Shown piece after piece: positions 29,653 to 64,000 of a stretch of DNA of 64,000 nucleotides. The position numbers and the translations under genes are program-made. The stretch comes from Escherichia phage fKMPT1. The stretch's first letter is position 1; each line of letters starts with the position of its first letter. A model generated the notes under the pieces. The model was not told the DNA's origin. It was given only the letters and a program-made list of their open reading frames with translations, and made no database searches. The stretch lies in sequence record PP620640. One strand, 5' to 3'.

Positions 29653-30156
29653 TCAAGATAGTTTTGCAAACTCTCCGTGGAGTTTTATAGCAGCTTCACA
29701 GTAAGCTTTATGGGCTTCTTCAGGTGTATCAAATAGACCAAGTGATGACCTTTTACCTCTGCATGTTATAGTCGCCCTCCACTTATTGCAGTCTTTAAAG
29801 TAATGAACACCCTTGTAACCTGATTTGTTAGTCGTCTGCTTTACCCTGTTTTGAGCGTTTCCATATTTATCGGTCTCCCTAAGATTAGAAATGTGATTAT
29901 TACTCCTGTTGCCATCAATGTGGTCTATCATCTTAGTAGGTTTGTAACCATGCTCAAACCACCAAACAAGGTGATGCACTTTTATTACAACATCTTTGAA
30001 TTTAAGCACTTTGTAACCATAAGCATCACTTCCTCCGGCAACCTGACCAGCTTTAGCTTGTCTATTCCTATCATACCTGTTGTAGAAGACCCCTTTATCG
30101 GGGTCGTAAATAAAGTTGTCCTTGTAATCTTGAAGTGTTAGTGAACGGCGTACCAT
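29653..30156 (-). CDS. HNH homing endonuclease with AP2-type DNA-binding domain
   Basis: 167 aa; HNH_3-like motif MIDHIDGNRSNNHISNLRETDKYGNAQNR and AP2-like SGYKGVHYFKDCNKWRATI...LGLFDTPEEAHKAY; immediately downstream of intron-containing polymerase gene. Confidence 0.75.
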   Translation of the reverse strand: MVRRSLTLQDYKDNFIYDPDKGVFYNRYDRNRQAKAGQVAGGSDAYGYKVLKFKDVVIKVHHLVWWFEHGYKPTKMIDHIDGNRSNNHISNLRETDKYGNAQNRVKQTTNKSGYKGVHYFKDCNKWRATITCRGKRSSLGLFDTPEEAHKAYCEAAIKLHGEFAKLS

Positions 30157-30689
30157 GTTTTACCTACCTTACCAGTACCCGTGACAAGTGTCTTACTCTT
30201 TAATCCAAGATTTTTTGATGCTTGACCATACATTCTATCAATAATCTCCTTAACATCTGGTACAGCTTTTGTTGGAACCTCTAAAGAAACTTCGTCGTGG
30301 TAACTACAGACCCATCTAGCACCAATAGCTGGTTTCCTACCATTTAGAACTGTAAGTTTTCGCTCTGTTAACTCTCTATTAGCCAAGTTAATCCCCTCAT
30401 TCTGTACCTGCGCCTCACTACCCATGAGTGTGAAATTCAATAACTTATGTGGAGATTTACACCATAACCACGCTCCAGCGACTTTGATATAACCACCTTT
30501 GGCAATTGCAGAAGTTTTTCCAAAAACCTCTTCAAGTGCTTTCTTAGTTGCTTTGAAGTCTTCCTCTAACCTATCAAGCAGCTTTTTAATCTTAGGTAGA
30601 CGTACAAAGTAAGTTTGTTTAGTCAATGCACCTTCTTCCGTAGATGATGCCTTGATAGTTTTTGCAAACTTCTCGTCTCCAGCACCGAA
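30138..30689 (-). CDS. DNA polymerase, family A (T7-like), exon 2 (5' boundary approximate)
   Basis: Contains FGAGDEKFA (second half of motif B, cf. T7 YGAGDEK) and motif C YHDEV; no in-frame ATG or RBS at its 5' end, stop codon 4 codons upstream. Confidence 0.65.
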   Translation of the reverse strand, partial: FGAGDEKFAKTIKASSTEEGALTKQTYFVRLPKIKKLLDRLEEDFKATKKALEEVFGKTSAIAKGGYIKVAGAWLWCKSPHKLLNFTLMGSEAQVQNEGINLANRELTERKLTVLNGRKPAIGARWVCSYHDEVSLEVPTKAVPDVKEIIDRMYGQASKNLGLKSKTLVTGTGKVGKTWYAVH

Positions 30690-30965
30690 CAATACATCTG
30701 GTCAATACACTCGCAAGGTGTACCAGTTCTCTTATGAACTTCTCCGCATTTCTACGGAGTGTCGGACTATATCACGTAGCAGGATGCTACCGTTGCACTT
30801 GGGAATGGTCATTAGCTTACCACCCTACTCTACTCAGTTCATACGTTAAGTATGCTTTTCGATAGTCTCTGAACGTTCCTCTCAAGAGGCTTCGCTGCTG
30901 ATTACCGTATCTTCTCAGACTTAGGCTTCCAGCAATTCACAACGTTTTACATGCGCCACTGACGC
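30690..30965 (-). mobile_element. Group I self-splicing intron (ORF-less) in DNA polymerase gene; boundaries approximate
   Basis: On minus strand, in order: P-like gaattgctggaagcc (~30924-30938), Q-like aatcagcagcg (~30893-30903), R-like gttcagagactat (~30862-30874), S-like gatatagtccgac (~30761-30773) giving P7 GACTAT/ATAGTC; P9-like hairpin ctccgtagaaatgcggag; possible P1 pairing exon tttaT with intron Gtaaa; interrupts motif B of polymerase. Confidence 0.75.
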
Positions 30966-33104
30966 ATAAATGCCATTTTTGGCTTTCTTACGACCTTTTG
31001 TAATCTCGTGGAGAAGTTCCTCATCCTGTGTATACCTACAACGAACAATATCTTCTTCCTTGTTCAGACCAAAGTAAATACTGTTCAGTGTATGTGCATC
31101 AGTACCTGTGTATACTTCATAGAGGTCATTCTCAGCATCATAACGAAGGTACTTGTCAGTTTCTGGATTGAGGTACTTATCAAGATGCTTGCAATAGTAT
31201 CTTCCATCCTCTTGCTTGGTAAATTCTACTGACTCTTTACCTTGTGTTACCGCTTTAGTGAACTCTTCATCACCCATAAAGTTACAAAGAAGAACTAGCT
31301 GTGCTGAGTTTTGGTCTACAGAGATGATATCTGTCCCCTCTTCACAAGTCCACACCTCCCTCATAGGTGCTCCATAGACAGCAGCACCAGACGGTACGTT
31401 TACAATACCATATTGTGTCATACGTCCAGTTGAAGTACCAAATACCATTGCACCAGCACTAAGGCGACCATCAGGACGAATCTGGTTCAACCAACCTTTT
31501 TCATCATCCTTTGAGTTCTCAATAGTTCTGCGTCGGTGCATCAAAGTATAGTACTTAGCAATCTTCTGTCCAAGCTCACCTTCAATCGTATCATAAGATG
31601 ATTCAGTAAGTTTTGGTGAAGTACGGATTAAGCAAGGTTCAAGCAAATCTGTGTATTTCTTCACAGACCAGTTATGTTCAATGTACTGGACACCTTCATG
31701 TTCAACATAACTCAAACCACACCTTTCAACCATCTCATCCCACTTAGGATGCTTTGTAATCATCTTTTTGTTGTCTTTGAAACGACAAACTTTGACAGGA
31801 CGACCATCTGAGTCTTTCTTGTAGTTCCAGTCATCTGGAATCCAACCAACTGATTTCAAATAGTCTTTCACAACTGCTACCTGAGTCATACGAGAAACTT
31901 CGAACTCAATTGGTGTATATGGTGCATCAATCAAACCTGTGTAGCGACTTGACTCAAGCTCAAAGTGGTTAACAACATGGCTGTTATAGTACTTCACAGT
32001 TTTAACTGTTTTTACTGGCTTCCAATCTTTGCACTTCTTACCAATCTTTGCATTCAACTCATTGCAAATTGCACGAGCATCCTTCATTGCTACAAAACCT
32101 TCCTTGTACTCTTCACCAGTTACAGAGTTGGTTGGTGTATAGCAATTCCGCTTTTCAATGTTAAAAATCTTTGTAGTTGGCTTACCAAATGGCTTGATTT
32201 CATATGTCTGCATCTCACCGTTACGTACCTGCTGACGATACTTTGTCTTAGGGTACTTGGTAATTCTCTTCAGTCCATCTGCGTGACCAAATGCTTCAAC
32301 ATACTCATTCCAAGCTTTTGCAAACTCTTCTCCAGTGACTTTAACTTTGGTCTTGATAGTTGGAGGAAGATGTGGTTCAACTTCTGAAGCAAGCTCATTA
32401 GTCAACTTGTCAAGTTCCTTTACATGGAACTCCATAAGCTCTTTATCAGCTTTCCAACCATTGATAGCTTGTTGACTCATCCAGAAAGATGTTTCTTTAG
32501 CTCGCATGTAGGTTTCATAAGTATCTACGCCACACTTCTTCAGCTTGAGATATTCATTATCCAGTGCACGTTTAGTTTTGGCGTTAATACGGATATCTTC
32601 TACAACACGAGTGAAGATTTCTGCATTCCACACACCCCAATGTTCAATCTCTGGTTTACGTACACCGACACGAGCACCCCATGCAGCCAAGCCATGAGCA
32701 CCTTTATAGCCTTTTGGAGTTGGTCTATCCATCCATTGAACACGAGATTGGATAAGAGAATCCTGAAAGAAATTACTCCACGGCTTACACTTTGGATTAT
32801 CAAAGTTCCACAAATCAGGTGCAATGTGATTGAAAACCCACCAGTCATACCCCAGACCATTATGGATGCAAAGTCGTTTTGCCTTTAACGCAAACTCAAC
32901 ACCTTCACGCAAGCCACCCTTAATGTACTTGGTATACTTGTGACCGAGGATAGGCTCATCTGTAAAGACCCATACAGGTGGCTCTTCATCGTCAGATTTA
33001 TAGTCTGCGAAAGCCATTACGTGTACTTTAGTGAACTCAAGGAGTAAACCATCAGTTTCTGTATCGCCAACTAAATGTAAGTTTTTAAAATCTACGTTTT
33101 CCAT
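30966..33104 (-). CDS. DNA polymerase, family A (T7-like), exon 1 (3' boundary approximate)
   Basis: 3'-5' exonuclease Exo I motif VGDTETDGL; motif A-like DQNSAQLVL; ends in RKKAKNGIY (first half of motif B); likely true start at second in-frame ATG (MENVD) preceded by GAGGGAG RBS. Confidence 0.75.
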
Positions 33105-33361
33105 TTTTACTCCCTCTAAAATCATTAACCACATACATTACTGCAAAAAATTATAAAAAGCAAGTTGACAATGTACTTGACAAGGTGTTAATCTTTGCGA
33201 AGTGGGTTTTTACTTAAAAGGTTACTTAACAGTTTAACTATACAGATACTTTAAAACTCTTAAAAGATTATTTAATAGTTTTTAAAAAGCTTTAAAGTAT
33301 AACGTATAGAATACGTTAAGATAAAAGATTAAAACTTAATAGTTACTTAAAAGAGGCTTAC

Positions 33362-46301: not shown

Positions 46302-48446
46302 ATGAACAAAGTACAGATTATTAAAAAGAATGGCTCACTTGAAGAACCTGATATCAAAAAAGTTTTAGCAGCAGTAACTAAGTCAGCTAATAGGGTTGGG
46401 TATAAAGAACTCCCACCAGATGTTACCCAAGCTCTTGAGTCAGCATTCATGAGGATTCTGGTGAAGTCCACTAAGCAGAATAATTTGCTCATCTCGGTAA
46501 ATGACATTCACAGTATTGTTGAGGGTGCTTTGGCAGAAGTCAATCACGAGATTTACGAGTCTTACTCAACATATAGAAATTACCGTAAAGAGGTTGCTCA
46601 AAATTGGGATGAGCTTTACCAAAAGACTAGAGACACACTCTTCTTAGGTGACCGTGAAAATGCTAACTTTGACAGCAGTTTAATCTCTACAAAAGGCTCA
46701 ATTATTCGTGGTTATCTGACTAAAGAAATCTTTAAACAGTACCATTTAACACCAGAAGAACTCGAAGCCATTGAACAAGGGTTTATCTACATCCATGACT
46801 TAAGAGACCTAATTTTTGGTGGTATTAACTGTTGCTTGTTTGACATTGGTAAAGTACTGAAAGGTGGCTTTGAAATGTCTGGCATCGAATACTGTGAACC
46901 GAAGTCTGTACTGTCAGCCTTACAAGTCATCGGTGATGTAGTTCTTTCAGCAACTGCACAGCAATTTGGTGGCTTTACTTTAGCAGAGATTGATAAGGTA
47001 CTTGTACCGTATGCTAAGAAGTCTCTACGCTATCATGCTGAGAAAGCAGCATCTTACGGTATTCCTAAAGAACATTACCATAACTATGTCATGGAGCAGC
47101 TACAGATTGAATTAACTCAAGGCTTCCAGTCACTAGAGATGAAGCTAAATACTGTACCTTGTAGCCGTGGTGATTTCGCATTCACAACTTTAACATTTGG
47201 GTTGCTCGACTCAGATATGTCTAATGAAGACAACAGACTGCAATACATGATTGCAAGTACTCTCCTAGATGTTCGTATGAATGGGCAAGGTAAGAGCAAA
47301 AAACCTGTTGTATTCCCTAAACTGGTTTATATCTACGACCAGAAGAGACATGATGAAAATATCTGTCAAGGTCACCTGTACAGTAAAGCTATCGAGTGTT
47401 GCTCTAAAGCAATGTATCCAGATTTCTTAAGTGTATCTGGTCACGGTGCTGTAGCAGAGGCTTTTGAGCGTTCTGGTAAGGTAATTTCACCGATGGGTTG
47501 CAGAGCTTTCTTGTCTCCATATCTTAACGATGATGGGGAAGAGTTCTACGTTGGTCGTGCTAACATTGGTGCTGTGTCTTTGAACTTGCCAATGATTTAC
47601 CAGTATTCTAAAGAGAATGGTTTAGATTTCTGGAAAGAGCTTGATAAGTACCTAGAGATGATTCGCAGCTTCCACAAGAAACGCTACGAAATGATTGCTA
47701 ATATGCCAGCAAGTTCTAACCCTCTTGCATTCACACAAGGTGGTCTGTACAAAGGTACTAAGAAATCTACTGACAAGGTTGGCTGGGATATCGTGAAGTC
47801 CTTCACAGCTTCTTTTGGGGTTACTGCACTTGATGAGTTATCTGTTCTTGCTGAAGGTAAACGACTTCATGAAGTTGGAAGCTATAGTTTCGCATACGAT
47901 GTTCTGGCATACATCAACATGAAAACTGAAGAGTTTAAAAATGAAGATGGCTTCTTATATGCTGTCTATGGTACTCCAGCAGAATCACTTTGTGGAACTC
48001 AGCTAAAACAGTTCAGAGATATGTTTGGCGTTATTAAAGGCGTTTCTGACAAGGAATACTTCACAAACAGTTTTCATATGAATGTTGCAGCAGACATCTC
48101 ACCATTTGAGAAGCAGGACTTAGAAGAGCCATTCTTCCATATCTGTAGAGGCGGTAGAATCCAGTATGTAAGGGTAGCTAACCCAGAAAACTTAACAGCA
48201 CTTAAAAGTTGTATTACAAGAGGGATGTTGAAGGGTTTTTATCAGGGACTTAACTTTGACTTAGCAATCTGTGAACATTGTGGTAGCAGACCAAAGGCTG
48301 ATGTTGAAGAATGTGAGGTTTGCCATTCACATGATATCTCTGTGATTAACAGGGTGTGCGGGTACTTGGGGTGGACTAAGATTAAAGGTGAATCCCGAAT
48401 GAATGATGCAAAAATTGCTGAGATTCGTGATAGAGTATCTATGTAA
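46302..48446 (+). CDS. nrdD: Anaerobic ribonucleoside-triphosphate reductase
   Basis: 714 aa; N-terminal ATP-cone, C-terminal zinc ribbon CEHCGS...CEVC and glycyl-radical motif RVCGYLG. Confidence 0.85.
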   Translation: MNKVQIIKKNGSLEEPDIKKVLAAVTKSANRVGYKELPPDVTQALESAFMRILVKSTKQNNLLISVNDIHSIVEGALAEVNHEIYESYSTYRNYRKEVAQNWDELYQKTRDTLFLGDRENANFDSSLISTKGSIIRGYLTKEIFKQYHLTPEELEAIEQGFIYIHDLRDLIFGGINCCLFDIGKVLKGGFEMSGIEYCEPKSVLSALQVIGDVVLSATAQQFGGFTLAEIDKVLVPYAKKSLRYHAEKAASYGIPKEHYHNYVMEQLQIELTQGFQSLEMKLNTVPCSRGDFAFTTLTFGLLDSDMSNEDNRLQYMIASTLLDVRMNGQGKSKKPVVFPKLVYIYDQKRHDENICQGHLYSKAIECCSKAMYPDFLSVSGHGAVAEAFERSGKVISPMGCRAFLSPYLNDDGEEFYVGRANIGAVSLNLPMIYQYSKENGLDFWKELDKYLEMIRSFHKKRYEMIANMPASSNPLAFTQGGLYKGTKKSTDKVGWDIVKSFTASFGVTALDELSVLAEGKRLHEVGSYSFAYDVLAYINMKTEEFKNEDGFLYAVYGTPAESLCGTQLKQFRDMFGVIKGVSDKEYFTNSFHMNVAADISPFEKQDLEEPFFHICRGGRIQYVRVANPENLTALKSCITRGMLKGFYQGLNFDLAICEHCGSRPKADVEECEVCHSHDISVINRVCGYLGWTKIKGESRMNDAKIAEIRDRVSM

Positions 48447-51073: not shown

Positions 51074-51086
51074 GCTTGTATGATTA

Positions 51087-51111
51087 GGGAACTGTAAAAG
51101 GTTCCCTTTTT
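51087..51111 (+). terminator. Rho-independent terminator
   Basis: gggaac-tgtaaaa-ggttccc hairpin followed by TTTTT. Confidence 0.65.
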
Positions 51112-51674: not shown

Positions 51675-52130
51675 ATGATTTTTTGCAGCTTCCAAAAAAG
51701 AATTATTGAGATTCTATACAATAAGTTTGGGACAGATAACACATTTGACTCAAATGAAGCTATTGAAGCCCTACAAGAAGGAAGTGATTACATCAAAAAA
51801 CAGCCAATAGCAAACATCAGGTACTACTTGACTCAGATGAGAAAGTGGGGTGTGCTCATCGTGGTAGGACAGATTAAGCAACAAGGGAGGATGCTCATCA
51901 ACCAATTAAATAGGGGTTTTATTGAGAAGCACATTCAGCTAGAATATTTACTTAAAGAGCCACGAAACCAACGTGAAGAACAGCAAAAAGACTTAAGTGA
52001 TGGTGTAGGTGTGTCTCCAGACATAAAATTCTTTATTGGTGAGTTGATGTTTGATACACTCCAAGACGCTGTCGAACACTGCAAAAAGTATATTATCAAA
52101 GTAAAACGTGCAAAAATTATTTGGGAGTAA
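51675..52130 (+). CDS. Paralog family member A1 (unknown function)
   Basis: Start at ATG 51675 (MIFCSFQ); shares N-terminal MIFCxxQK..IEILY..FGT.NTFDSNEAI and C-terminal AVEHCKK.(I/L)IKVK.AK(I/V)IWE with 52552..53016. Confidence 0.5.
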   Translation: MIFCSFQKRIIEILYNKFGTDNTFDSNEAIEALQEGSDYIKKQPIANIRYYLTQMRKWGVLIVVGQIKQQGRMLINQLNRGFIEKHIQLEYLLKEPRNQREEQQKDLSDGVGVSPDIKFFIGELMFDTLQDAVEHCKKYIIKVKRAKIIWE

Positions 52131-52134
52131 TAAC

Positions 52135-52530
52135 ATGTTTGAGCTTCTGAAGGTTCTGTATATAACTTTTGGCTATGATAAAACATTTTCTGGCTCACAG
52201 CTAACTAAGGTTTTTAATAAATATCTACCACATGCTTCAATCAGGGATAAAGCTAATTGGTCTCACAGATTACGTAAAAGTGGGTATATTAGCGTTGTTG
52301 GAGCGACAGGCTTTAATAATGAGTATCTTATGAGAATCAATGAAAGCAAAGCTAAAAAGGTGCTTTTAAATTGTAATGACCATCAACAAAAGTATGAAGA
52401 GGCTAGTGTAGGTGAAGTAGGGTACTTCATAGGTGACATACACTTTACCAGTATGGAGGCAGCAGTTGAGCATTGTAAGAAAACGGTTATCCAAACAAAA
52501 AGAAAGCGTATTGTTTGGGAAGAAGTTTAA
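52135..52530 (+). CDS. Paralog family member B1 (unknown function)
   Basis: Start at ATG 52135 (MFELLKVLY) with GGGAG 7 nt upstream inside previous gene; C-terminal AAVEHCKKTVIQTKRKRIVWE. Confidence 0.5.
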   Translation: MFELLKVLYITFGYDKTFSGSQLTKVFNKYLPHASIRDKANWSHRLRKSGYISVVGATGFNNEYLMRINESKAKKVLLNCNDHQQKYEEASVGEVGYFIGDIHFTSMEAAVEHCKKTVIQTKRKRIVWEEV

Positions 52531-52551
52531 ACATTTGATTAGGAATACACT

Positions 52552-53016
52552 ATGATTTTTTGCAATTTACAGAAGCACGTAATAGAGATTTTATACAAAA
52601 CCTTCGGGACAGAAAACACTTTTGACTCTAATGAAGCAATTGACGCATTAAGAGAGAATAGTCTTTTTATACGAGGCCAGTCAATCAGTAATACCCGTGG
52701 GTATCTAACAATGTTAAGACAGTCTGGTGTACTGCTGACTGTAGGGCAGGTAAAAAGCAAAGGTAGGCTAAGTATTAATCAATTAAATCGAGCCTTTATG
52801 GAGAAGCACATACAACTGTCAAGGATGCTAGATAATACGCGTGAAGAGTTGGGGAGTTCACAAAAAGCAAGTTCATCTGATGTTAAAGATGTGGATGTAC
52901 AACCTGACGTAAGATACTTTATCGCAGATGTTATGTTTAAAACACTTGATGAAGCTGTTGAGCACTGCAAAAAGCATCTTATTAAAGTTAAACATGCAAA
53001 AGTTATTTGGGAGTGA
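52552..53016 (+). CDS. Paralog family member A2 (unknown function)
   Basis: 154 aa; full-length alignable with A1. Confidence 0.5.
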   Translation: MIFCNLQKHVIEILYKTFGTENTFDSNEAIDALRENSLFIRGQSISNTRGYLTMLRQSGVLLTVGQVKSKGRLSINQLNRAFMEKHIQLSRMLDNTREELGSSQKASSSDVKDVDVQPDVRYFIADVMFKTLDEAVEHCKKHLIKVKHAKVIWE

Positions 53017-53020
53017 TGTT

Positions 53021-53401
53021 ATGATTGAACTGTTAAAAGTCCTATATAATAAGTTTGGTTATGATGAAACTTTTACTTGTTCACAGATACGTAGTATCCA
53101 TGATAAGGAATTTCCAAATGTATCCAAGACAAACAAGTCAACTCGGTTCAATCGTCTTCGCCAGAGGGGTTACATTAAAATAGTTGGATACAAGAATAAC
53201 TCTTTTGAGTATGTAATGCAGATTAACAGAGAAGTATCAAGTAAAATACTTGAAGAGCCAACAGCCGAAGAACAAAAGATACAAGATGGTGAAGTTCGCT
53301 TCTTTGTGGAGAAGGAAAGTTTTGGGTCAATAGACGAAGCTATCGAATATTGCAAAAAGAACATTATCCAGATAAAGCGTAGAAAGGTTATTTGGGAATA
53401 A
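53021..53401 (+). CDS. Paralog family member B2 (unknown function)
   Basis: Start at ATG 53021 (MIELLKVLY) with GGGAG 7 nt upstream; C-terminal EAIEYCKKNIIQIKRRKVIWE. Confidence 0.5.
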   Translation: MIELLKVLYNKFGYDETFTCSQIRSIHDKEFPNVSKTNKSTRFNRLRQRGYIKIVGYKNNSFEYVMQINREVSSKILEEPTAEEQKIQDGEVRFFVEKESFGSIDEAIEYCKKNIIQIKRRKVIWE

Positions 53402-53420: not shown

Positions 53421-54302
53421 ATGAAAACATCTATCCGCGTTACAGTTCATTCACCAACTAAAGGAACTTATGAAGAAGAGTTTAACATCATCCAATTCCC
53501 TTCTGGTGAGATTGGTGGACACTTTTCACCAGAGTTTGTTGACTTCACTACTTATGCAGCATCATCTATCAACAATGTGATTATGATTGTAAAAGGTTAT
53601 GATAAAGATACATTGTTTGCTGTGGCACTTGCTAAAGAGGCGGTGGACAACTTAGTACCTCATAAGTTTGCTATGAAGACCATTATCTTTTACTATTTGC
53701 CAAATGCACGTTATGACCGTCACATGTTTAAAGGTGATGCAGCAGCTTTGAAAGTGTTTGCACAACAGGTTAATGCAATGGGTTTTGATGCAGTCTGTGC
53801 AGTTGACCCTCACAGCTATGTACCAGATAACCTGTTTAACTGCTTCCAAAGTATCCCTCAAAATGAAGTTGCAGTTCACTATGCAAATGACCCTCTGGTT
53901 GATTACTTAGTAGCCCCAGATGCAGGTGCTTCTAAGAAGATTGCAGAGACTGCTAAAGAGGTGGATAAACCATATATCACAATGTCTAAGGTGCGTAACC
54001 TTAAGACTGGTGAAATTACTGGTATGCGAATCCTTGATGATGTTGATTTGACAGATAAAACCGTCATGATTCTGGATGATATTTGTGATGGAGGACGAAC
54101 CTTCATAGAAGCAGCTAAACATCTTCGTGAAGCAGGTGCAAAACGTGTGGAACTCTATGTAACTCATGGTATTTTCTCTAAAGGGGTTGAAAACTTGCTT
54201 GACAATGGTATTGACCATATCTACACTACAAACTCTTTAGGGGAAGCTAAAGACCGTGGCTTAACACATTATGCTCAAGTTACTGTAGCAAACCTTGATT
54301 AA
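53421..54302 (+). CDS. Ribose-phosphate pyrophosphokinase (Prs) family protein; Prs or ADPR-PP synthetase-like
   Basis: 293 aa; collinear with Prs motifs: IFYYLPNARYDRH (cf. VIPYFGYARQDR), VAPDAGASKK (cf. VSPDIGGVVRA), PRPP-binding loop VMILDDICDGGRTF...AGAKRVELYVTHGIFS. Confidence 0.7.
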   Translation: MKTSIRVTVHSPTKGTYEEEFNIIQFPSGEIGGHFSPEFVDFTTYAASSINNVIMIVKGYDKDTLFAVALAKEAVDNLVPHKFAMKTIIFYYLPNARYDRHMFKGDAAALKVFAQQVNAMGFDAVCAVDPHSYVPDNLFNCFQSIPQNEVAVHYANDPLVDYLVAPDAGASKKIAETAKEVDKPYITMSKVRNLKTGEITGMRILDDVDLTDKTVMILDDICDGGRTFIEAAKHLREAGAKRVELYVTHGIFSKGVENLLDNGIDHIYTTNSLGEAKDRGLTHYAQVTVANLD

Positions 54303-54311
54303 AACTTTATA

Positions 54312-54332
54312 GGGGCTTACAAGCCCCATTTT
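54312..54332 (+). terminator. Weak terminator-like hairpin
   Basis: ggggc-ttacaa-gcccc followed by ATTTT. Confidence 0.4.
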
Positions 54333-54347
54333 GAGAGAGATTAAAAG

Positions 54348-56129
54348 ATGACTAAATCACTTTATGCAGTACCAGCAGGTTTAAACGCAGACGCTTACAA
54401 ATCTGGTCACATCTACCAGTATCCTAGTGCAATAGAGTACTTGATGTTCAACCTGACACCACGTAGTGATAAATGGTTTAACAGCCCCTTAGCAATTGAC
54501 GGTGTAGTGGCTTTTGGTATTCAACGTTTTGTTAAAGATTACCTGATAGACCACTGGAACGCCACCTTCTTCGAACGTGACAAAAAAGAAGCAATTGACG
54601 AAATCTTAGAAGTCATGAACGGTGTTCTGGGTAAAGATGCTATTGGTCGAGAACATTGGGAAGCACTCCACGACTTAGGTTATCTACCAGTTGAAGTATA
54701 CGCTGTAGAAGAAGGCACAGTTGTCCCTATGCGTGTACCAATGATTGTCTTCCAGAACACTGTTTCAGGTTTCCATTGGGTAGCGGGGTATCTGGAAGAT
54801 GCTTTCTCTGCTGAGATTTGGAAGGCTTGTACCATTGCAACTATTGCATTGCACTACAAACGTATCTGTAAGAAGTGGTCTGACCTTACTTGTGACAATG
54901 ACTTGCATTTACCTTATCAGTGCCATGACTTTGCTATGCGTGGTATGTCTGGCTTTACTGATGACGCATTTAATGCTGTAGGCCACTTAACCAGCTTTAA
55001 AGGGACTGATAGCTTCCCTGCTGTATACACGGCTAAACGCATCTATGGACAGCCCTACCCAATCTCTGATATTGGTAGTTCTGTACCAGCCACTGAACAC
55101 TCTGTAATGTGTGCAAACATTGCTTGGGAAGGTGGTAATGAGTTGATTGAAGAAGAAAGACGCTTTAAAGGTGAGTTACAAACCTTCCGTCGTTTCTTAA
55201 CAGAAACTTACCCAACTGGTATTGCAAGTGTTGTTTCAGACACTTATAATTTCTGGAAAACTGTATCAGAAATCTTACCAGCACTTCGCAAAGAGATTAT
55301 GGAACGTGACGGAAAACTGGTAATTCGTCCTGACTCTGGCGACCCTGTACATATTGTCACAGGTTATAAAGCAATCCACTTAGAGTGCGCTAAAAAAGCT
55401 TATTACGAACACCTAAGCAAGCTGGAAGCCAGCGACACAAAGTTGAATGCTGTTCTGAACATGAATCTTGAAGACATTCACTATATTATGGCTGGGTGGT
55501 TACGTACAGAAGGCTATGAAATGGTGGTTGACAGAGAAGACTTTGAAGTAGCTGATACAGTGCTTCTGAAAGATGCCTACATCAACGGCTCTGCAAACGT
55601 TGTAACACGTCCTGTAGCAGAGATTGATGGAGCTATTAAGACCCTGTATAACATCTTTGGAGGGACTATCAACGCTAAAGGTTTTAAAGTACTGGATGAG
55701 CACATTGGACTTATTTATGGTGACTCTATCACGTTGGAACGTGCAAACGAAATCCTTAAGCGTTTGTATGAAATGGGTTTTGCAAGCTCTAACGTAGTGT
55801 TTGGTGTAGGTTCTTACACTTACCAGTACATGACTCGTGACACCTTTGCATTTGCTGTTAAAGCAACTCTGGCAAGCATTGGTGGCAAAGAGATTATGCT
55901 TGCAAAAGACCCTAAAACAGATAGTGGTGTTAAGAAGTCTGCTTTTGGTGGTGTAGCACCTATGTGGGATGGTGATAAGCTGAAAGCTGTAGATGGCTAT
56001 GGGTTCCAGAGCTTTGCAGATGTGCTTGAACATCCAGCTTGTGCTTTACGTTTAGTCTTTAGTGACTCTGAGCAGTTTGGTTACACAAATCTTGGTGATA
56101 TTCGAAATAATATTGACAAGCAGCTTTAA
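54348..56129 (+). CDS. Nicotinamide phosphoribosyltransferase family protein (NadV/NAMPT-like or Namat-like)
   Basis: 593 aa; N-terminal LNADAYKSGHIYQYPS matches NAMPT LATDSYKVTHYKQYP; immediately downstream of Prs-like gene. Confidence 0.7.
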   Translation: MTKSLYAVPAGLNADAYKSGHIYQYPSAIEYLMFNLTPRSDKWFNSPLAIDGVVAFGIQRFVKDYLIDHWNATFFERDKKEAIDEILEVMNGVLGKDAIGREHWEALHDLGYLPVEVYAVEEGTVVPMRVPMIVFQNTVSGFHWVAGYLEDAFSAEIWKACTIATIALHYKRICKKWSDLTCDNDLHLPYQCHDFAMRGMSGFTDDAFNAVGHLTSFKGTDSFPAVYTAKRIYGQPYPISDIGSSVPATEHSVMCANIAWEGGNELIEEERRFKGELQTFRRFLTETYPTGIASVVSDTYNFWKTVSEILPALRKEIMERDGKLVIRPDSGDPVHIVTGYKAIHLECAKKAYYEHLSKLEASDTKLNAVLNMNLEDIHYIMAGWLRTEGYEMVVDREDFEVADTVLLKDAYINGSANVVTRPVAEIDGAIKTLYNIFGGTINAKGFKVLDEHIGLIYGDSITLERANEILKRLYEMGFASSNVVFGVGSYTYQYMTRDTFAFAVKATLASIGGKEIMLAKDPKTDSGVKKSAFGGVAPMWDGDKLKAVDGYGFQSFADVLEHPACALRLVFSDSEQFGYTNLGDIRNNIDKQL

Positions 56130-56142
56130 AAGTATATGATAA

Positions 56143-56165
56143 GAGGCTCCTACGGGAGCCTTTTT
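56143..56165 (+). terminator. Rho-independent terminator
   Basis: ggctcc-tacg-ggagcc hairpin followed by TTTTT. Confidence 0.7.
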
Positions 56166-56182
56166 AATTTCTGGAGAAGATT

Positions 56183-56518
56183 ATGAAAATCAAAGAAATG
56201 AATATCAATATTGTCTTAGAAGAACGTTGGGAGAACATCAAGAAGCCTGAAAATGGTCATAAGTTCCTCAACAAAATCTTAGTAGCAGCTAAAGAAGAAC
56301 TGACTGGCAAGGTTGCAGCAGCAATTACAATAAAGGTGTGTGTAAAAGGTCTTCCAGACAATCACCAATTTGCACTTGACGAGTTTAAAGAAAGCTTCTA
56401 CAATCCAAACAAACAGATGCTTGAAAGTAATTTTGCAGTATCTACAAGTATCGTCCATGACAGAAGCTTTATCCTTTACAAGAATATGAGAGGTGAGTCA
56501 TGCAAGCATATTGGATAG
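56183..56518 (+). CDS. Hypothetical protein
   Basis: 111-aa ORF. Confidence 0.35.
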   Translation: MKIKEMNINIVLEERWENIKKPENGHKFLNKILVAAKEELTGKVAAAITIKVCVKGLPDNHQFALDEFKESFYNPNKQMLESNFAVSTSIVHDRSFILYKNMRGESCKHIG

Positions 56519-56676
56519 AAATTTTACTGTCACTTGGTAGTGTAGCAGTATTTGTTTACCTTCTTTGCAAGTACTATGCAGAACACAAAAAATGTGACTT
56601 CTGTAACGGAGAGGGTTATACAAGAGCAGGTTGTTGCCCTATGTGTGGTGGTTCTGGTAAAATGTTTAATAAGTAA
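56500..56676 (+). CDS. Small membrane-anchored protein with two CxxCxGxG (DnaJ-type) zinc-finger motifs
   Basis: 58-aa ORF missed by track length cut-off; MQAYWIEILLSLGSVAVFVYLLCKYYAEHKKCDFCNGEGYTRAGCCPMCGGSGKMFNK; RBS GAGAGGTGAG. Confidence 0.45.
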   Translation: MQAYWIEILLSLGSVAVFVYLLCKYYAEHKKCDFCNGEGYTRAGCCPMCGGSGKMFNK

Positions 56677-63908: not shown

Positions 63909-64000
63909 ATGGGTATTGTAAAAATCATCAATGGTGATATCTTTGCAGCATTTGATAAAGGTAAGTTTGACATCATCGGTCACGGTTGCAACTGTATGAA
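63909..64000 (+). CDS. Macro-domain-like protein, N-terminal fragment (continues beyond window)
   Basis: MGIVKIINGDIFAAFDKGKFDIIGHGCNCM resembles macro-domain N-terminus (GDI(T/F)...D.I(V/I)N.AN pattern). Confidence 0.25.
   Translation, partial: MGIVKIINGDIFAAFDKGKFDIIGHGCNCM

What the first reader, a model, noticed from the sequence alone, without database searches (positions are those of the whole stretch)
53421..56129. Prs-like + NAMPT-like gene pair: candidate NAD+ reconstitution (anti-defense) module
A Prs-family enzyme (PRPP-binding loop VMILDDICDGGRTF) sits directly upstream of a NAMPT-family enzyme (LNADAYKSGHIYQYPS) in a terminator-bounded unit. No NMN adenylyltransferase gene is adjacent. 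Phage Prs-homolog + NAMPT-homolog pairs have been described as the NARP1 pathway (ADPR-pyrophosphate synthetase Adps plus nicotinamide-ADPR transferase Namat), which rebuilds NAD+ from ADPR and nicotinamide and counters NAD+-depleting immunity such as Thoeris, DSR, SEFIR and some CBASS effectors. The alternative is a classical PRPP + nicotinamide to NMN salvage step. The NAMPT-like protein is unusually long (593 aa), so it may carry an extra domain.
Basis: partly seen in the sequence, partly recalled or inferred. Interest (0 to 1): 0.75.

Follow-up and report, generated by a model that had tools for sequence, protein, structure and literature searches.

The report
Known phage NAD+ rebuilding gene pair (NARP1)

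Summary
The window is the first 64 kb of Salmonella phage fBSPA4 (OR711204.1), a Felixounavirus. Both ORFs exist exactly as described: 53421-54302 (293 aa, Prs-like) and 54348-56129 (593 aa, NAMPT-like). They are syntenic orthologues of genes 79-80 of phage Bas63 (JohannRWettstein), the Felixounavirus in which NARP1 (Adps + Namat) was discovered. Identity is 80% and 96%, with no gaps and the same 45-nt spacer.

The second protein carries the published Namat-specific adenine-clamp motif (GSYTYQYMTRD). It retains 16 of 20 NAD+-contact residues of the solved SPβL1 Namat, with 4 conservative changes, and its model matches the Namat crystal structures best. The first protein keeps the essential Adps lysine (K190) and fails every curated housekeeping-Prs equivalog threshold. 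No NMNAT, NadR or Nudix family was detected in the uncharacterised genes of the whole genome. The original paper's tables already list the closest relatives as NARP1 carriers.

Two corrections apply. Only the downstream terminator is real. The extra length is a confidently folded ~78-aa inserted α/β domain with no detectable structural relative. It is shared with Bas63, and the papers read here do not discuss it.

One open lead is a Macro-domain gene 7.8 kb downstream.

The parts
53421..54302 (+). adps: ADP-ribose pyrophosphokinase (Prs-family), 293 aa
   Evidence: ORF. 80% identical, with no gaps, to Bas63_0079. Passes only the broad Prs subfamily model and fails all Prs equivalog cutoffs. 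23-29% identical to E. coli Prs.
53988..53990 (+). Codon for Adps K190, the equivalent of the essential SPβL1 Adps K162 (K-x-R-N motif)
   Evidence: Alignment with SPβL1, FADO, Kronos and Bas63 Adps. The K162A mutant is inactive according to the paper.
54063..54104 (+).
   Evidence: Position confirmed. The loop aligns with DDMIDTGGT of E. coli Prs and varies among Adps proteins.
54312..54327 (+). Conserved GC hairpin (GGGGCU-UACA-AGCCCC) followed by AUUUU in the 45-nt adps-namat spacer. Possibly a leaky terminator or RNA-stability element (inferred).
   Evidence: dG -12.6 kcal/mol, z = -3.1, 0 of 200 shuffles fold as well. The stem is identical in Bas63 and only the loop differs. The consensus scan missed it. 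The same spacer holds an HNH homing endonuclease gene in phages Mushroom and phiSUSP1.
54348..56129 (+). namat: nicotinamide ADP-ribose transferase (NAMPT-family), 593 aa
   Evidence: ORF. 96% identical, with no gaps, to Bas63_0080. AF2 model pLDDT 93.8. Best structural matches are the Namat crystal structures 9w5x/9w5w, target TM 0.94-0.95.
54465..54491 (+). Selectivity-clamp loop (SCL), aa 40-48 SDKWFNSPL; K42-W43 are the predicted adenine-stacking residues
   Evidence: Aligned to SPβL1 R40. Sequence identical to Bas63, for which the paper assigns the stacking role to the fourth loop residue.
55119..55160 (+). Small insertion (aa 258-271) that extends two helices relative to SPβL1/FADO Namat
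   Evidence: Gap in the alignments to 9w5w and FADO. Low-occupancy run 258-271. Helical in the model.
55374..55607 (+). Inserted α/β domain (aa ~343-420) between the RPDSGDP strand and the next core helix; function unknown
55809..55841 (+). Selectivity-clamp helix motif (SCH) GSYTYQYMTRD, aa 488-498: the Namat signature
   Evidence: [quoted passage not shown] Xanthomonas Nampt has GGALLQKVDRD and H. ducreyi NadV has GAQTYQRNTRD at the same place.
56141..56169 (+). Intrinsic terminator closing the unit
   Evidence: 10-bp stem, GGGA... loop and T-run. dG -17.2 kcal/mol, z = -3.2.

Best explanation
The pair is NAD+ reconstitution pathway 1 (NARP1). When a host NADase effector (SIR2, TIR or SEFIR type) cleaves NAD+ into ADP-ribose and nicotinamide during infection, the first enzyme (Adps) uses ATP to pyrophosphorylate ADP-ribose to ADPR-pyrophosphate. 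The second enzyme (Namat) then joins ADPR-PP to nicotinamide with release of pyrophosphate, giving NAD+ directly with no NMN intermediate and no NMN adenylyltransferase. Namat keeps the NAMPT catalytic core and adds an adenine-binding clamp (loop K42/W43 plus helix Y490/Y494) that favours ADPR-PP over PRPP. Shown here: orthology, synteny, motif and residue conservation, fold, and failure to detect an NMNAT. Shown elsewhere, on Bas63 (genetics and metabolites) and on SPβL1 (enzymology and crystal structures): the chemistry and the anti-defence phenotype. Inferred: that the fBSPA4 proteins behave the same way.
For: The window is fBSPA4, a Felixounavirus. NARP1 was discovered by deleting genes 79-80 of the Felixounavirus Bas63. 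The deletion caused a ~20-fold drop in plaques on SIR2-HerA cells, loss of NAD+ recovery and loss of the ADPR-PP mass, and the phenotype was independent of host pncC/nadR. The window proteins are 80% and 96% identical to Bas63_0079/0080 with identical lengths and spacer. Adps K190 matches the essential SPβL1 K162. Of the 20 NAD+-contacting residues of SPβL1 Namat, 16 are identical and 4 are conservative, and all match Bas63. The Namat signature GSYTYQYMTRD is present, whereas true Nampt/NadV structures lack it. The AF2 model matches the Namat crystal structures best. Adps fails all curated Prs equivalog cutoffs. No NMNAT, NadR or Nudix family was detected in the genome. FelixO1, wV8 and BPS17W1 are already tabulated as Adps-associated Namat and Namat-associated Adps.
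Against: No enzyme from fBSPA4, or even from Bas63 itself, has been assayed in vitro; the enzymology used SPβL1 homologues that are only 31% and 46% identical. The fBSPA4 Adps belongs to a different allele group from Bas63: its N-terminal ~180 aa are only about 70% identical, with dS 1.47. Namat retains some PRPP-to-NMN activity in vitro, so some classical salvage cannot be excluded. The inserted domain has no known role. I did not build a Prs/Adps tree.
Confidence: 0.93

Rival explanations
1. Classical salvage: the first enzyme makes PRPP from ribose-5-phosphate, the second makes NMN from PRPP and nicotinamide, and a host enzyme (NadR or PncC route) finishes NAD+.
For: This is what the Pfam, PHROG and GenBank annotations say. 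The NCBIfam NF006629 phosphoribosyltransferase model is passed. SPβL1 Namat can make NMN from PRPP in vitro.
Against: Bas63 still overcame SIR2-HerA in a ΔpncC ΔnadR host, and ADPR-PP appeared only with genes 79-80 present. The Namat adenine clamp is present. Adps fails every Prs equivalog cutoff. No phage NMNAT was detected.
Confidence: 0.04
2. A nucleotide-metabolism helper: the pair mainly boosts PRPP and pyridine-nucleotide supply for phage DNA synthesis, independent of host immunity.
For: It lies just downstream of the nrdA/nrdB/nrdD/nrdG cluster on the same strand.
Against: In Bas63 the unique metabolites formed only when the NADase defence system was present, and the deletion mutant was impaired specifically on defence-expressing cells. 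The paper describes NARP1 as using ADPR, which is produced only by NAD+ cleavage.
Confidence: 0.03

Closest known systems
NARP1 of Escherichia phage Bas63 / JohannRWettstein (genes bas63_0079-0080, MZ501086)
   Same: Same genus, same gene order, same protein lengths (293/593 aa) and same 45-nt spacer with the same hairpin stem. Namat is 96% identical, including the inserted domain and both clamp elements. The C-terminal 113 aa of Adps are nearly identical.
   Different: The N-terminal ~180 aa of Adps are a divergent allele (dS 1.47 against 0.33 for the C-terminal part). The upstream neighbours differ: fBSPA4 has four tandem phrog_29478 paralogues where Bas63 has one 279-nt gene.
NARP1 of Bacillus phage SPβL1 (OQ921341; enzymology, and Namat crystal structures 9w5w/9w5x)
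   Same: The catalytic lysine of Adps, the Namat catalytic core (F, R, D, A, R, D and the catalytic His), the SCH motif and the overall fold (target TM 0.95).
   Different: Only 31% (Adps) and 46% (Namat) identical. SPβL1 Namat is 491 aa and lacks both insertions. Its clamp loop is four residues shorter and uses R40 instead of K42/W43. Its two genes abut, with no spacer hairpin.
NARP1-AP (Adps-Adpp-Namat) of Thalassavirus phages such as Gary and Kronos
   Same: Adps and Namat are homologous (34% and 41% to Kronos). Kronos Namat has a shorter insertion at the same site. fBSPA4 encodes a Macro-domain protein that aligns with the Kronos operon-embedded Macro protein over the latter's full length (28%, E 5e-15).
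   Different: There is no Macro gene within or next to the fBSPA4 pair. The Macro gene lies 7.8 kb downstream, carries an extra ~100-aa C-terminal part, and is closer (~35%) to Macro proteins of T4-like phages.
NARP2 of Vibrio phage KVP40 (Nampt/NadV + Nmnat)
   Same: A NAMPT-family enzyme used by a phage to restore NAD+.
   Different: NARP2 needs a phage Nmnat and its Nampt prefers PRPP. Here no Nmnat was detected and the enzyme carries the ADPR-PP clamp.
Housekeeping Prs (E. coli b1207) and NadV/Nampt (H. ducreyi 9ke8, Xanthomonas 7yqo, human)
   Same: Same folds and conserved catalytic residues: RxDR, H131 and the K-x-R motif in Adps; the NMN-site residues in Namat.
   Different: 23-29% identity to E. 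coli Prs, and sub-threshold scores on all Prs equivalog models. The Nampt/NadV structures lack the aromatic clamp motif.

Membership tests
NARP1 (Adps + Namat) | A Prs-family protein with the catalytic lysine equivalent to SPβL1 Adps K162 / B. subtilis Prs K197 | tested here: met
   K190 lies in a K-x-R-N motif aligned with K162 of SPβL1, K168 of FADO and K192 of Kronos. The RxDR and DPHS motifs are conserved.
NARP1 (Adps + Namat) | The Prs-like protein belongs to the phage Adps clade rather than housekeeping Prs | tested here: met
   80% identical to the founding member Bas63 Adps, against 23-29% to E. coli Prs. It fails all NCBIfam Prs equivalog cutoffs. The near-identical Adps proteins of BPS17W1 and wV8 are listed as Namat-associated in the authors' table. 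I did not build a tree.
NARP1 (Adps + Namat) | A Namat homologue in the immediate vicinity of adps (the authors' criterion: within 10 genes) | tested here: met
   Adjacent on the same strand, 45 nt apart.
NARP1 (Adps + Namat) | [quoted passage not shown] | tested here: met
   GSYTYQYMTRD at aa 488-498, with Y490 and Y494. 119 of the top 120 homologues also carry the motif.
NARP1 (Adps + Namat) | Namat selectivity-clamp loop that provides an adenine-stacking residue (third residue R, or K/Y followed by a stacking residue) | tested here: met
   SDKW: K42 is followed by W43, identical to Bas63.
NARP1 (Adps + Namat) | Conserved NAMPT-type catalytic core (SPβL1 F189, R192, D215, A242, R306, D308 and the catalytic His) | tested here: met
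   F195, R198, D221, A248, R327, D329 and H251.
NARP1 (Adps + Namat) | Enzymatic activities: ADPR + ATP gives ADPR-PP; ADPR-PP + nicotinamide gives NAD+ | not testable with these tools
   Shown for the SPβL1, DyoEdafos and Paenibacillus homologues, and ADPR-PP was seen in Bas63-infected cells. Not shown for fBSPA4.
NARP1 (Adps + Namat) | Counter-defence phenotype against NAD+-depleting systems | not testable with these tools
   Shown for Bas63 Δ79-80 on SIR2-HerA and for FADO ΔNARP1 on DSR2.
NARP2 (Nampt + Nmnat) | A phage-encoded NMN adenylyltransferase | tested here: not met
   None of 37 non-structural uncharacterised CDS of at least 100 aa hit an NMNAT, NadR or Nudix Pfam family, and none is annotated. 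The structural-module proteins and ORFs under 100 aa were not scanned.
NARP1-AP (NARP1 with associated phosphatase) | A Macro-domain Adpp gene within two genes of the NARP1 pair | tested here: not met
   The six upstream and two downstream neighbours have no Macro hit even at E <= 1. The only Macro protein is 14 annotated genes downstream.
Housekeeping ribose-phosphate diphosphokinase (Prs) | Score above the curated equivalog cutoffs | tested here: not met
   Best equivalog score 104.5 bits against a cutoff of 296. Only the broad TIGR01251 subfamily model is passed (123 vs 113).

The most novel reading that the evidence does not exclude
Felixounavirus NARP1 may have two uncharacterised extras. 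(a) The ~78-aa α/β domain inserted in Namat right after the ribose-binding RPDSGDP strand has no detectable structural relative and evolves about 10 times faster than the rest of the protein. It could have a specific role, for example docking Adps to hand over the labile ADPR-PP, or evading a host inhibitor. (b) The Macro-domain protein 7.8 kb downstream, homologous to the operon-embedded Macro protein of Thalassavirus NARP1-AP, could act in trans as an ADPR-1''-phosphate phosphatase. That would give these phages a split NARP1-AP able to resist aRES-type defence, which a survey limited to two flanking genes would have missed.
Probability: 0.2. Interest if true: 0.45.

Novelty: already known. 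Interest (0 to 1): 0.13.

Why it matters
The result mainly corrects annotation. GenBank labels the pair 'ribose-phosphate pyrophosphokinase' and 'nicotinamide phosphoribosyltransferase (nadV)', which implies the wrong chemistry. Recognising it as NARP1 predicts that fBSPA4, a poultry Salmonella phage of possible biocontrol interest, can infect hosts carrying SIR2-, TIR- or SEFIR-based NAD+-depleting defences. On present evidence it would be stopped by aRES-type systems unless the distal Macro protein supplies the missing phosphatase. It adds no new biology beyond the 2024-2026 NARP1 papers. The two small open points are the undescribed inserted domain of Felixounavirus Namat and the distal Macro gene.

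Tried and rejected
1. Looked for known NARP1 accessory genes (Macro/Adpp, RyR-domain RyDEP) among the eight neighbouring ORFs and in the Namat insertion. Nothing was found even at E <= 1.
3. Looked for a dedicated Adps or Namat model in NCBIfam. None exists; only generic Prs and NAPRTase models hit.
4. Tested whether the divergent N-terminal part of Adps reflects positive selection. It does not: dN/dS is about 0.14 with very high dS, which indicates allele exchange by recombination.
5. Considered the Macro protein as a clear Adpp orthologue and rejected that as unproven. Poa1p matches only weakly (E about 0.01-0.02). The closest curated family is the DarG macrodomain, well below its cutoff. 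T4-like phages have closer homologues.
6. Guessed the Bas63 and SPβL1 accessions. MZ501111, MZ501080 and OM236515 were other phages. The right records were MZ501086 (found by stepping through the alphabetical series) and OQ921341 (taken from the paper's table).
7. KVP40 NadV was not fetched. Solved Nampt/NadV structures served as the contrast instead.
Full report
**Identity of the window.** The region 53421-56129 matches Salmonella phage fBSPA4 (OR711204.1, 87,179 bp, poultry, India) at 100% identity and at the same coordinates. A further 258 records also match, almost all Felixounavirus-type phages of Escherichia, Salmonella, Shigella and Citrobacter. The record labels the two genes 'putative ribose-phosphate pyrophosphokinase' and 'nadV, nicotinamide phosphoribosyl transferase'.

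**Check of the observation.**
- Both quoted peptides are present, at Adps aa 215 and Namat aa 12.
- Family matches are overwhelming: PHROG E = 2e-98 and 4e-200, with Pfam Pribosyltran/Pribosyl_synth and NAPRTase/NAMPT_N.
- A strong intrinsic terminator follows the second gene at 56141-56164 (10-bp stem, dG -17.2 kcal/mol, z = -3.2).
- The unit is not bounded by a terminator upstream. Only 19 nt separate the first gene from the preceding ORF. The nearest upstream terminator-like site is at 51086-51107, five ORFs away.
- Inside the 45-nt spacer there is a GC hairpin (54312-54327) followed by AUUUU (dG -12.6, z = -3.1). The consensus scan missed it. Its stem is identical in Bas63, and only loop bases differ.

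**What it is.** NARP1 was discovered in the BASEL phage Bas63 (JohannRWettstein), itself a Felixounavirus, by deleting its genes 79-80.
- The deletion reduced plaque formation about 20-fold on SIR2-HerA cells and abolished NAD+ recovery.
- It also removed a metabolite identified as ADPR-pyrophosphate.
- The phenotype did not depend on host pncC or nadR (bioRxiv 10.1101/2024.02.11.579819).

I fetched the Bas63 genome (MZ501086). Genes 79-80 have the same lengths (882 and 1782 nt) and the same 45-nt spacer as the window genes. The proteins are 80% (Adps) and 96% (Namat) identical, with no gaps. The authors' supplementary tables already list FelixO1, wV8 and BPS17W1 as 'Adps-associated' Namat and Namat-associated Adps. 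BPS17W1 is the closest relative of the window, at 96.6% DNA identity. wV8 and BPS17W1 carry the same Adps allele type as fBSPA4.

**Substrate-specifying residues.** The 2026 structural study of SPβL1 Namat (PMC12774641) defines a conserved NAMPT-like core plus an adenine 'selectivity clamp'. The clamp is a variable loop (SCL) and a helix motif (SCH) with consensus GS-X-Φ-X-Φ-X-Φ-TRD, aromatic at positions 3 and 7.
- The window protein reads GSYTYQYMTRD (aa 488-498).
- I fetched the SPβL1 pair (OQ921341) and mapped all 20 NAD+-contacting residues. Sixteen are identical and four are conservative: R40 to K42 (followed by W43), S190 to A196, A362 to S460, and F392 to Y490. Every one is the same as in Bas63.
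- The paper explicitly assigns the stacking role in Bas63 to the fourth loop residue, which is W43 here.
- True Nampt/NadV enzymes differ at the motif: Xanthomonas has GGALLQKVDRD and H. ducreyi NadV has GAQTYQRNTRD.
- An AlphaFold2 model (pLDDT 93.8, pTM 0.92) matches the Namat crystal structures best (9w5x/9w5w, target TM 0.94-0.95). These rank ahead of HdNadV and the mammalian and Xanthomonas Nampt structures.
- For Adps, the lysine whose mutation (K162A) inactivates the SPβL1 enzyme aligns with K190, in a K-x-R-N motif shared by all five Adps proteins compared.
- Adps is only 23-29% identical to E. coli Prs. It passes only the broad NCBIfam Prs subfamily model (123 vs 113 bits) and misses every Prs equivalog cutoff, for example 104 vs 296.

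I scanned the 37 non-structural, uncharacterised CDS of at least 100 aa from the whole genome against Pfam. None hit an NMNAT (CTP_transf_like), NadR or Nudix family. None is annotated either. The structural-module proteins and ORFs under 100 aa were not scanned. The eight immediate neighbours contain no Macro domain (the Adpp of NARP1-AP) and no RyR domain (RyDEP). This is therefore the plain two-gene form of NARP1.

**The extra length.** Relative to SPβL1 and FADO Namat (491 and 498 aa), the protein has a ~14-aa insertion at aa 258-271 and a ~78-aa insertion at about aa 343-420. The larger one sits directly after the RPDSGDP strand, which carries the ribose-binding R327 and D329.
- The long form (580-610 aa) is shared by Ounavirinae-type phages down to 46% identity. 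Kronos (Thalassavirus) has a ~40-aa version at the same site, and bacterial and Bacillus-phage forms have none.
- The insertion is confidently modelled in context (pLDDT 92-97) and on its own (pLDDT 94.4, pTM 0.83). It forms a compact α/β domain.
- Between fBSPA4 and Bas63 its dN is about 10 times that of the rest of the gene (0.095 vs 0.009). It is still under purifying selection, with dN/dS about 0.17.
- The domain is present in Bas63 Namat, so it is not new to this phage. The structural paper never uses the words 'insertion' or 'additional domain'. Its function is unknown.

**Other anatomy.**
- Divergence from Bas63 Adps is confined to the N-terminal ~180 aa (dS 1.47 vs 0.33 in the C-terminal part; dN/dS 0.14). 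Felixounavirus Adps proteins fall into two identity groups, 92-100% and 75-80%. This pattern indicates allele exchange rather than adaptive change.
- In Mushroom and phiSUSP1 the adps-namat spacer is occupied by an HNH homing endonuclease gene. Judging by the extra ~470 nt, the same is probably true of FelixO1.

**Verdict.** However, this is the type lineage of a system published in 2024 and extended in 2026, and close relatives are already catalogued as carriers. Novelty is 'already known' and interest is low. The most novel reading not excluded is that the inserted Namat domain or the distal Macro-domain protein adds an uncharacterised layer: Adps docking, or a split NARP1-AP.

- The Macro protein (63909-64694) aligns over its first 156 residues with the operon-embedded Macro protein of Kronos, covering that protein's full length (28% identity, E = 5e-15). 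Kronos is in the same genus as Gary, whose Adpp was characterised. The two share the same profile of solved relatives.
- Against this, T4-like phages have closer homologues, and the nearest curated family is the DarG macrodomain. A role unrelated to NARP1, such as reversing ADP-ribosylation, is at least as likely.

Noticed in passing
window 63909-64000 (gene continues to 64694 of OR711204.1; L007:1910-2695): A 261-aa Macro-domain protein (Pfam Macro E=1.2e-7, above cutoff), the orthologue of Bas63_0095 'putative phosphatase', lies 7.8 kb downstream of NARP1 on the same strand. Its first 156 aa align with the NARP1-embedded Macro protein of Vibrio phage Kronos (28%, E 5e-15). The best curated family is the DarG macrodomain (sub-threshold), and Poa1p matches only weakly. 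It could be an in-trans Adpp, or an ADP-ribosylation eraser unrelated to NARP1. The ~100-aa C-terminal part has no match.
   Followed up: partly
window 51675-53401: Four tandem paralogues of phrog_29478 (unknown function) sit directly upstream of adps in an A-B-A-B arrangement (A copies 60% identical to each other, B copies ~30% to A). All end in a conserved ...EAVEHCKK..I.K....IWE tail. The array is present in only about 10 of 236 related phage records; most relatives, including Bas63, have a single 279-nt gene at this position.
   Followed up: partly
window 54303-54347; L012:1183-1696; L013:1315-1830: The adps-namat spacer is a homing-endonuclease insertion site. Mushroom and phiSUSP1 carry a 163-aa HNH (AP2-domain) endonuclease gene there, and FelixO1 probably does too. 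fBSPA4 and Bas63 have the empty site with a conserved GC hairpin.
   Followed up: partly
window 53421-53960 vs 53961-54302: Adps is a recombination mosaic relative to Bas63. The N-terminal ~180 codons have dS 1.47 and ~70% aa identity, while the C-terminal 113 codons have dS 0.33 and ~99% aa identity. Two allele groups exist across the Felixounavirus records.
   Followed up: yes
window 56500-56676: A 58-aa ORF with two CxxC pairs (zinc-ribbon-like; phrog_3931 E=2e-33) overlaps the end of the gene downstream of namat. It is not annotated in the fBSPA4 record, although Bas63 annotates the equivalent gene (bas63_0083, 'putative membrane protein').
   Followed up: no
window 46302-48446 vs L005:6631-9517: nrdD is one uninterrupted CDS in fBSPA4. 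In Bas63 it is annotated as two joined pieces with a homing endonuclease gene (bas63_0068) inside. This is another presence/absence polymorphism of a mobile endonuclease.
   Followed up: no
window 29653-33125 (- strand): The DNA polymerase is annotated as two separate CDS (30138-30692 and 30921-33125), with an HNH endonuclease gene (29653-30156) abutting the smaller piece. This suggests a split or interrupted polymerase gene.
   Followed up: no
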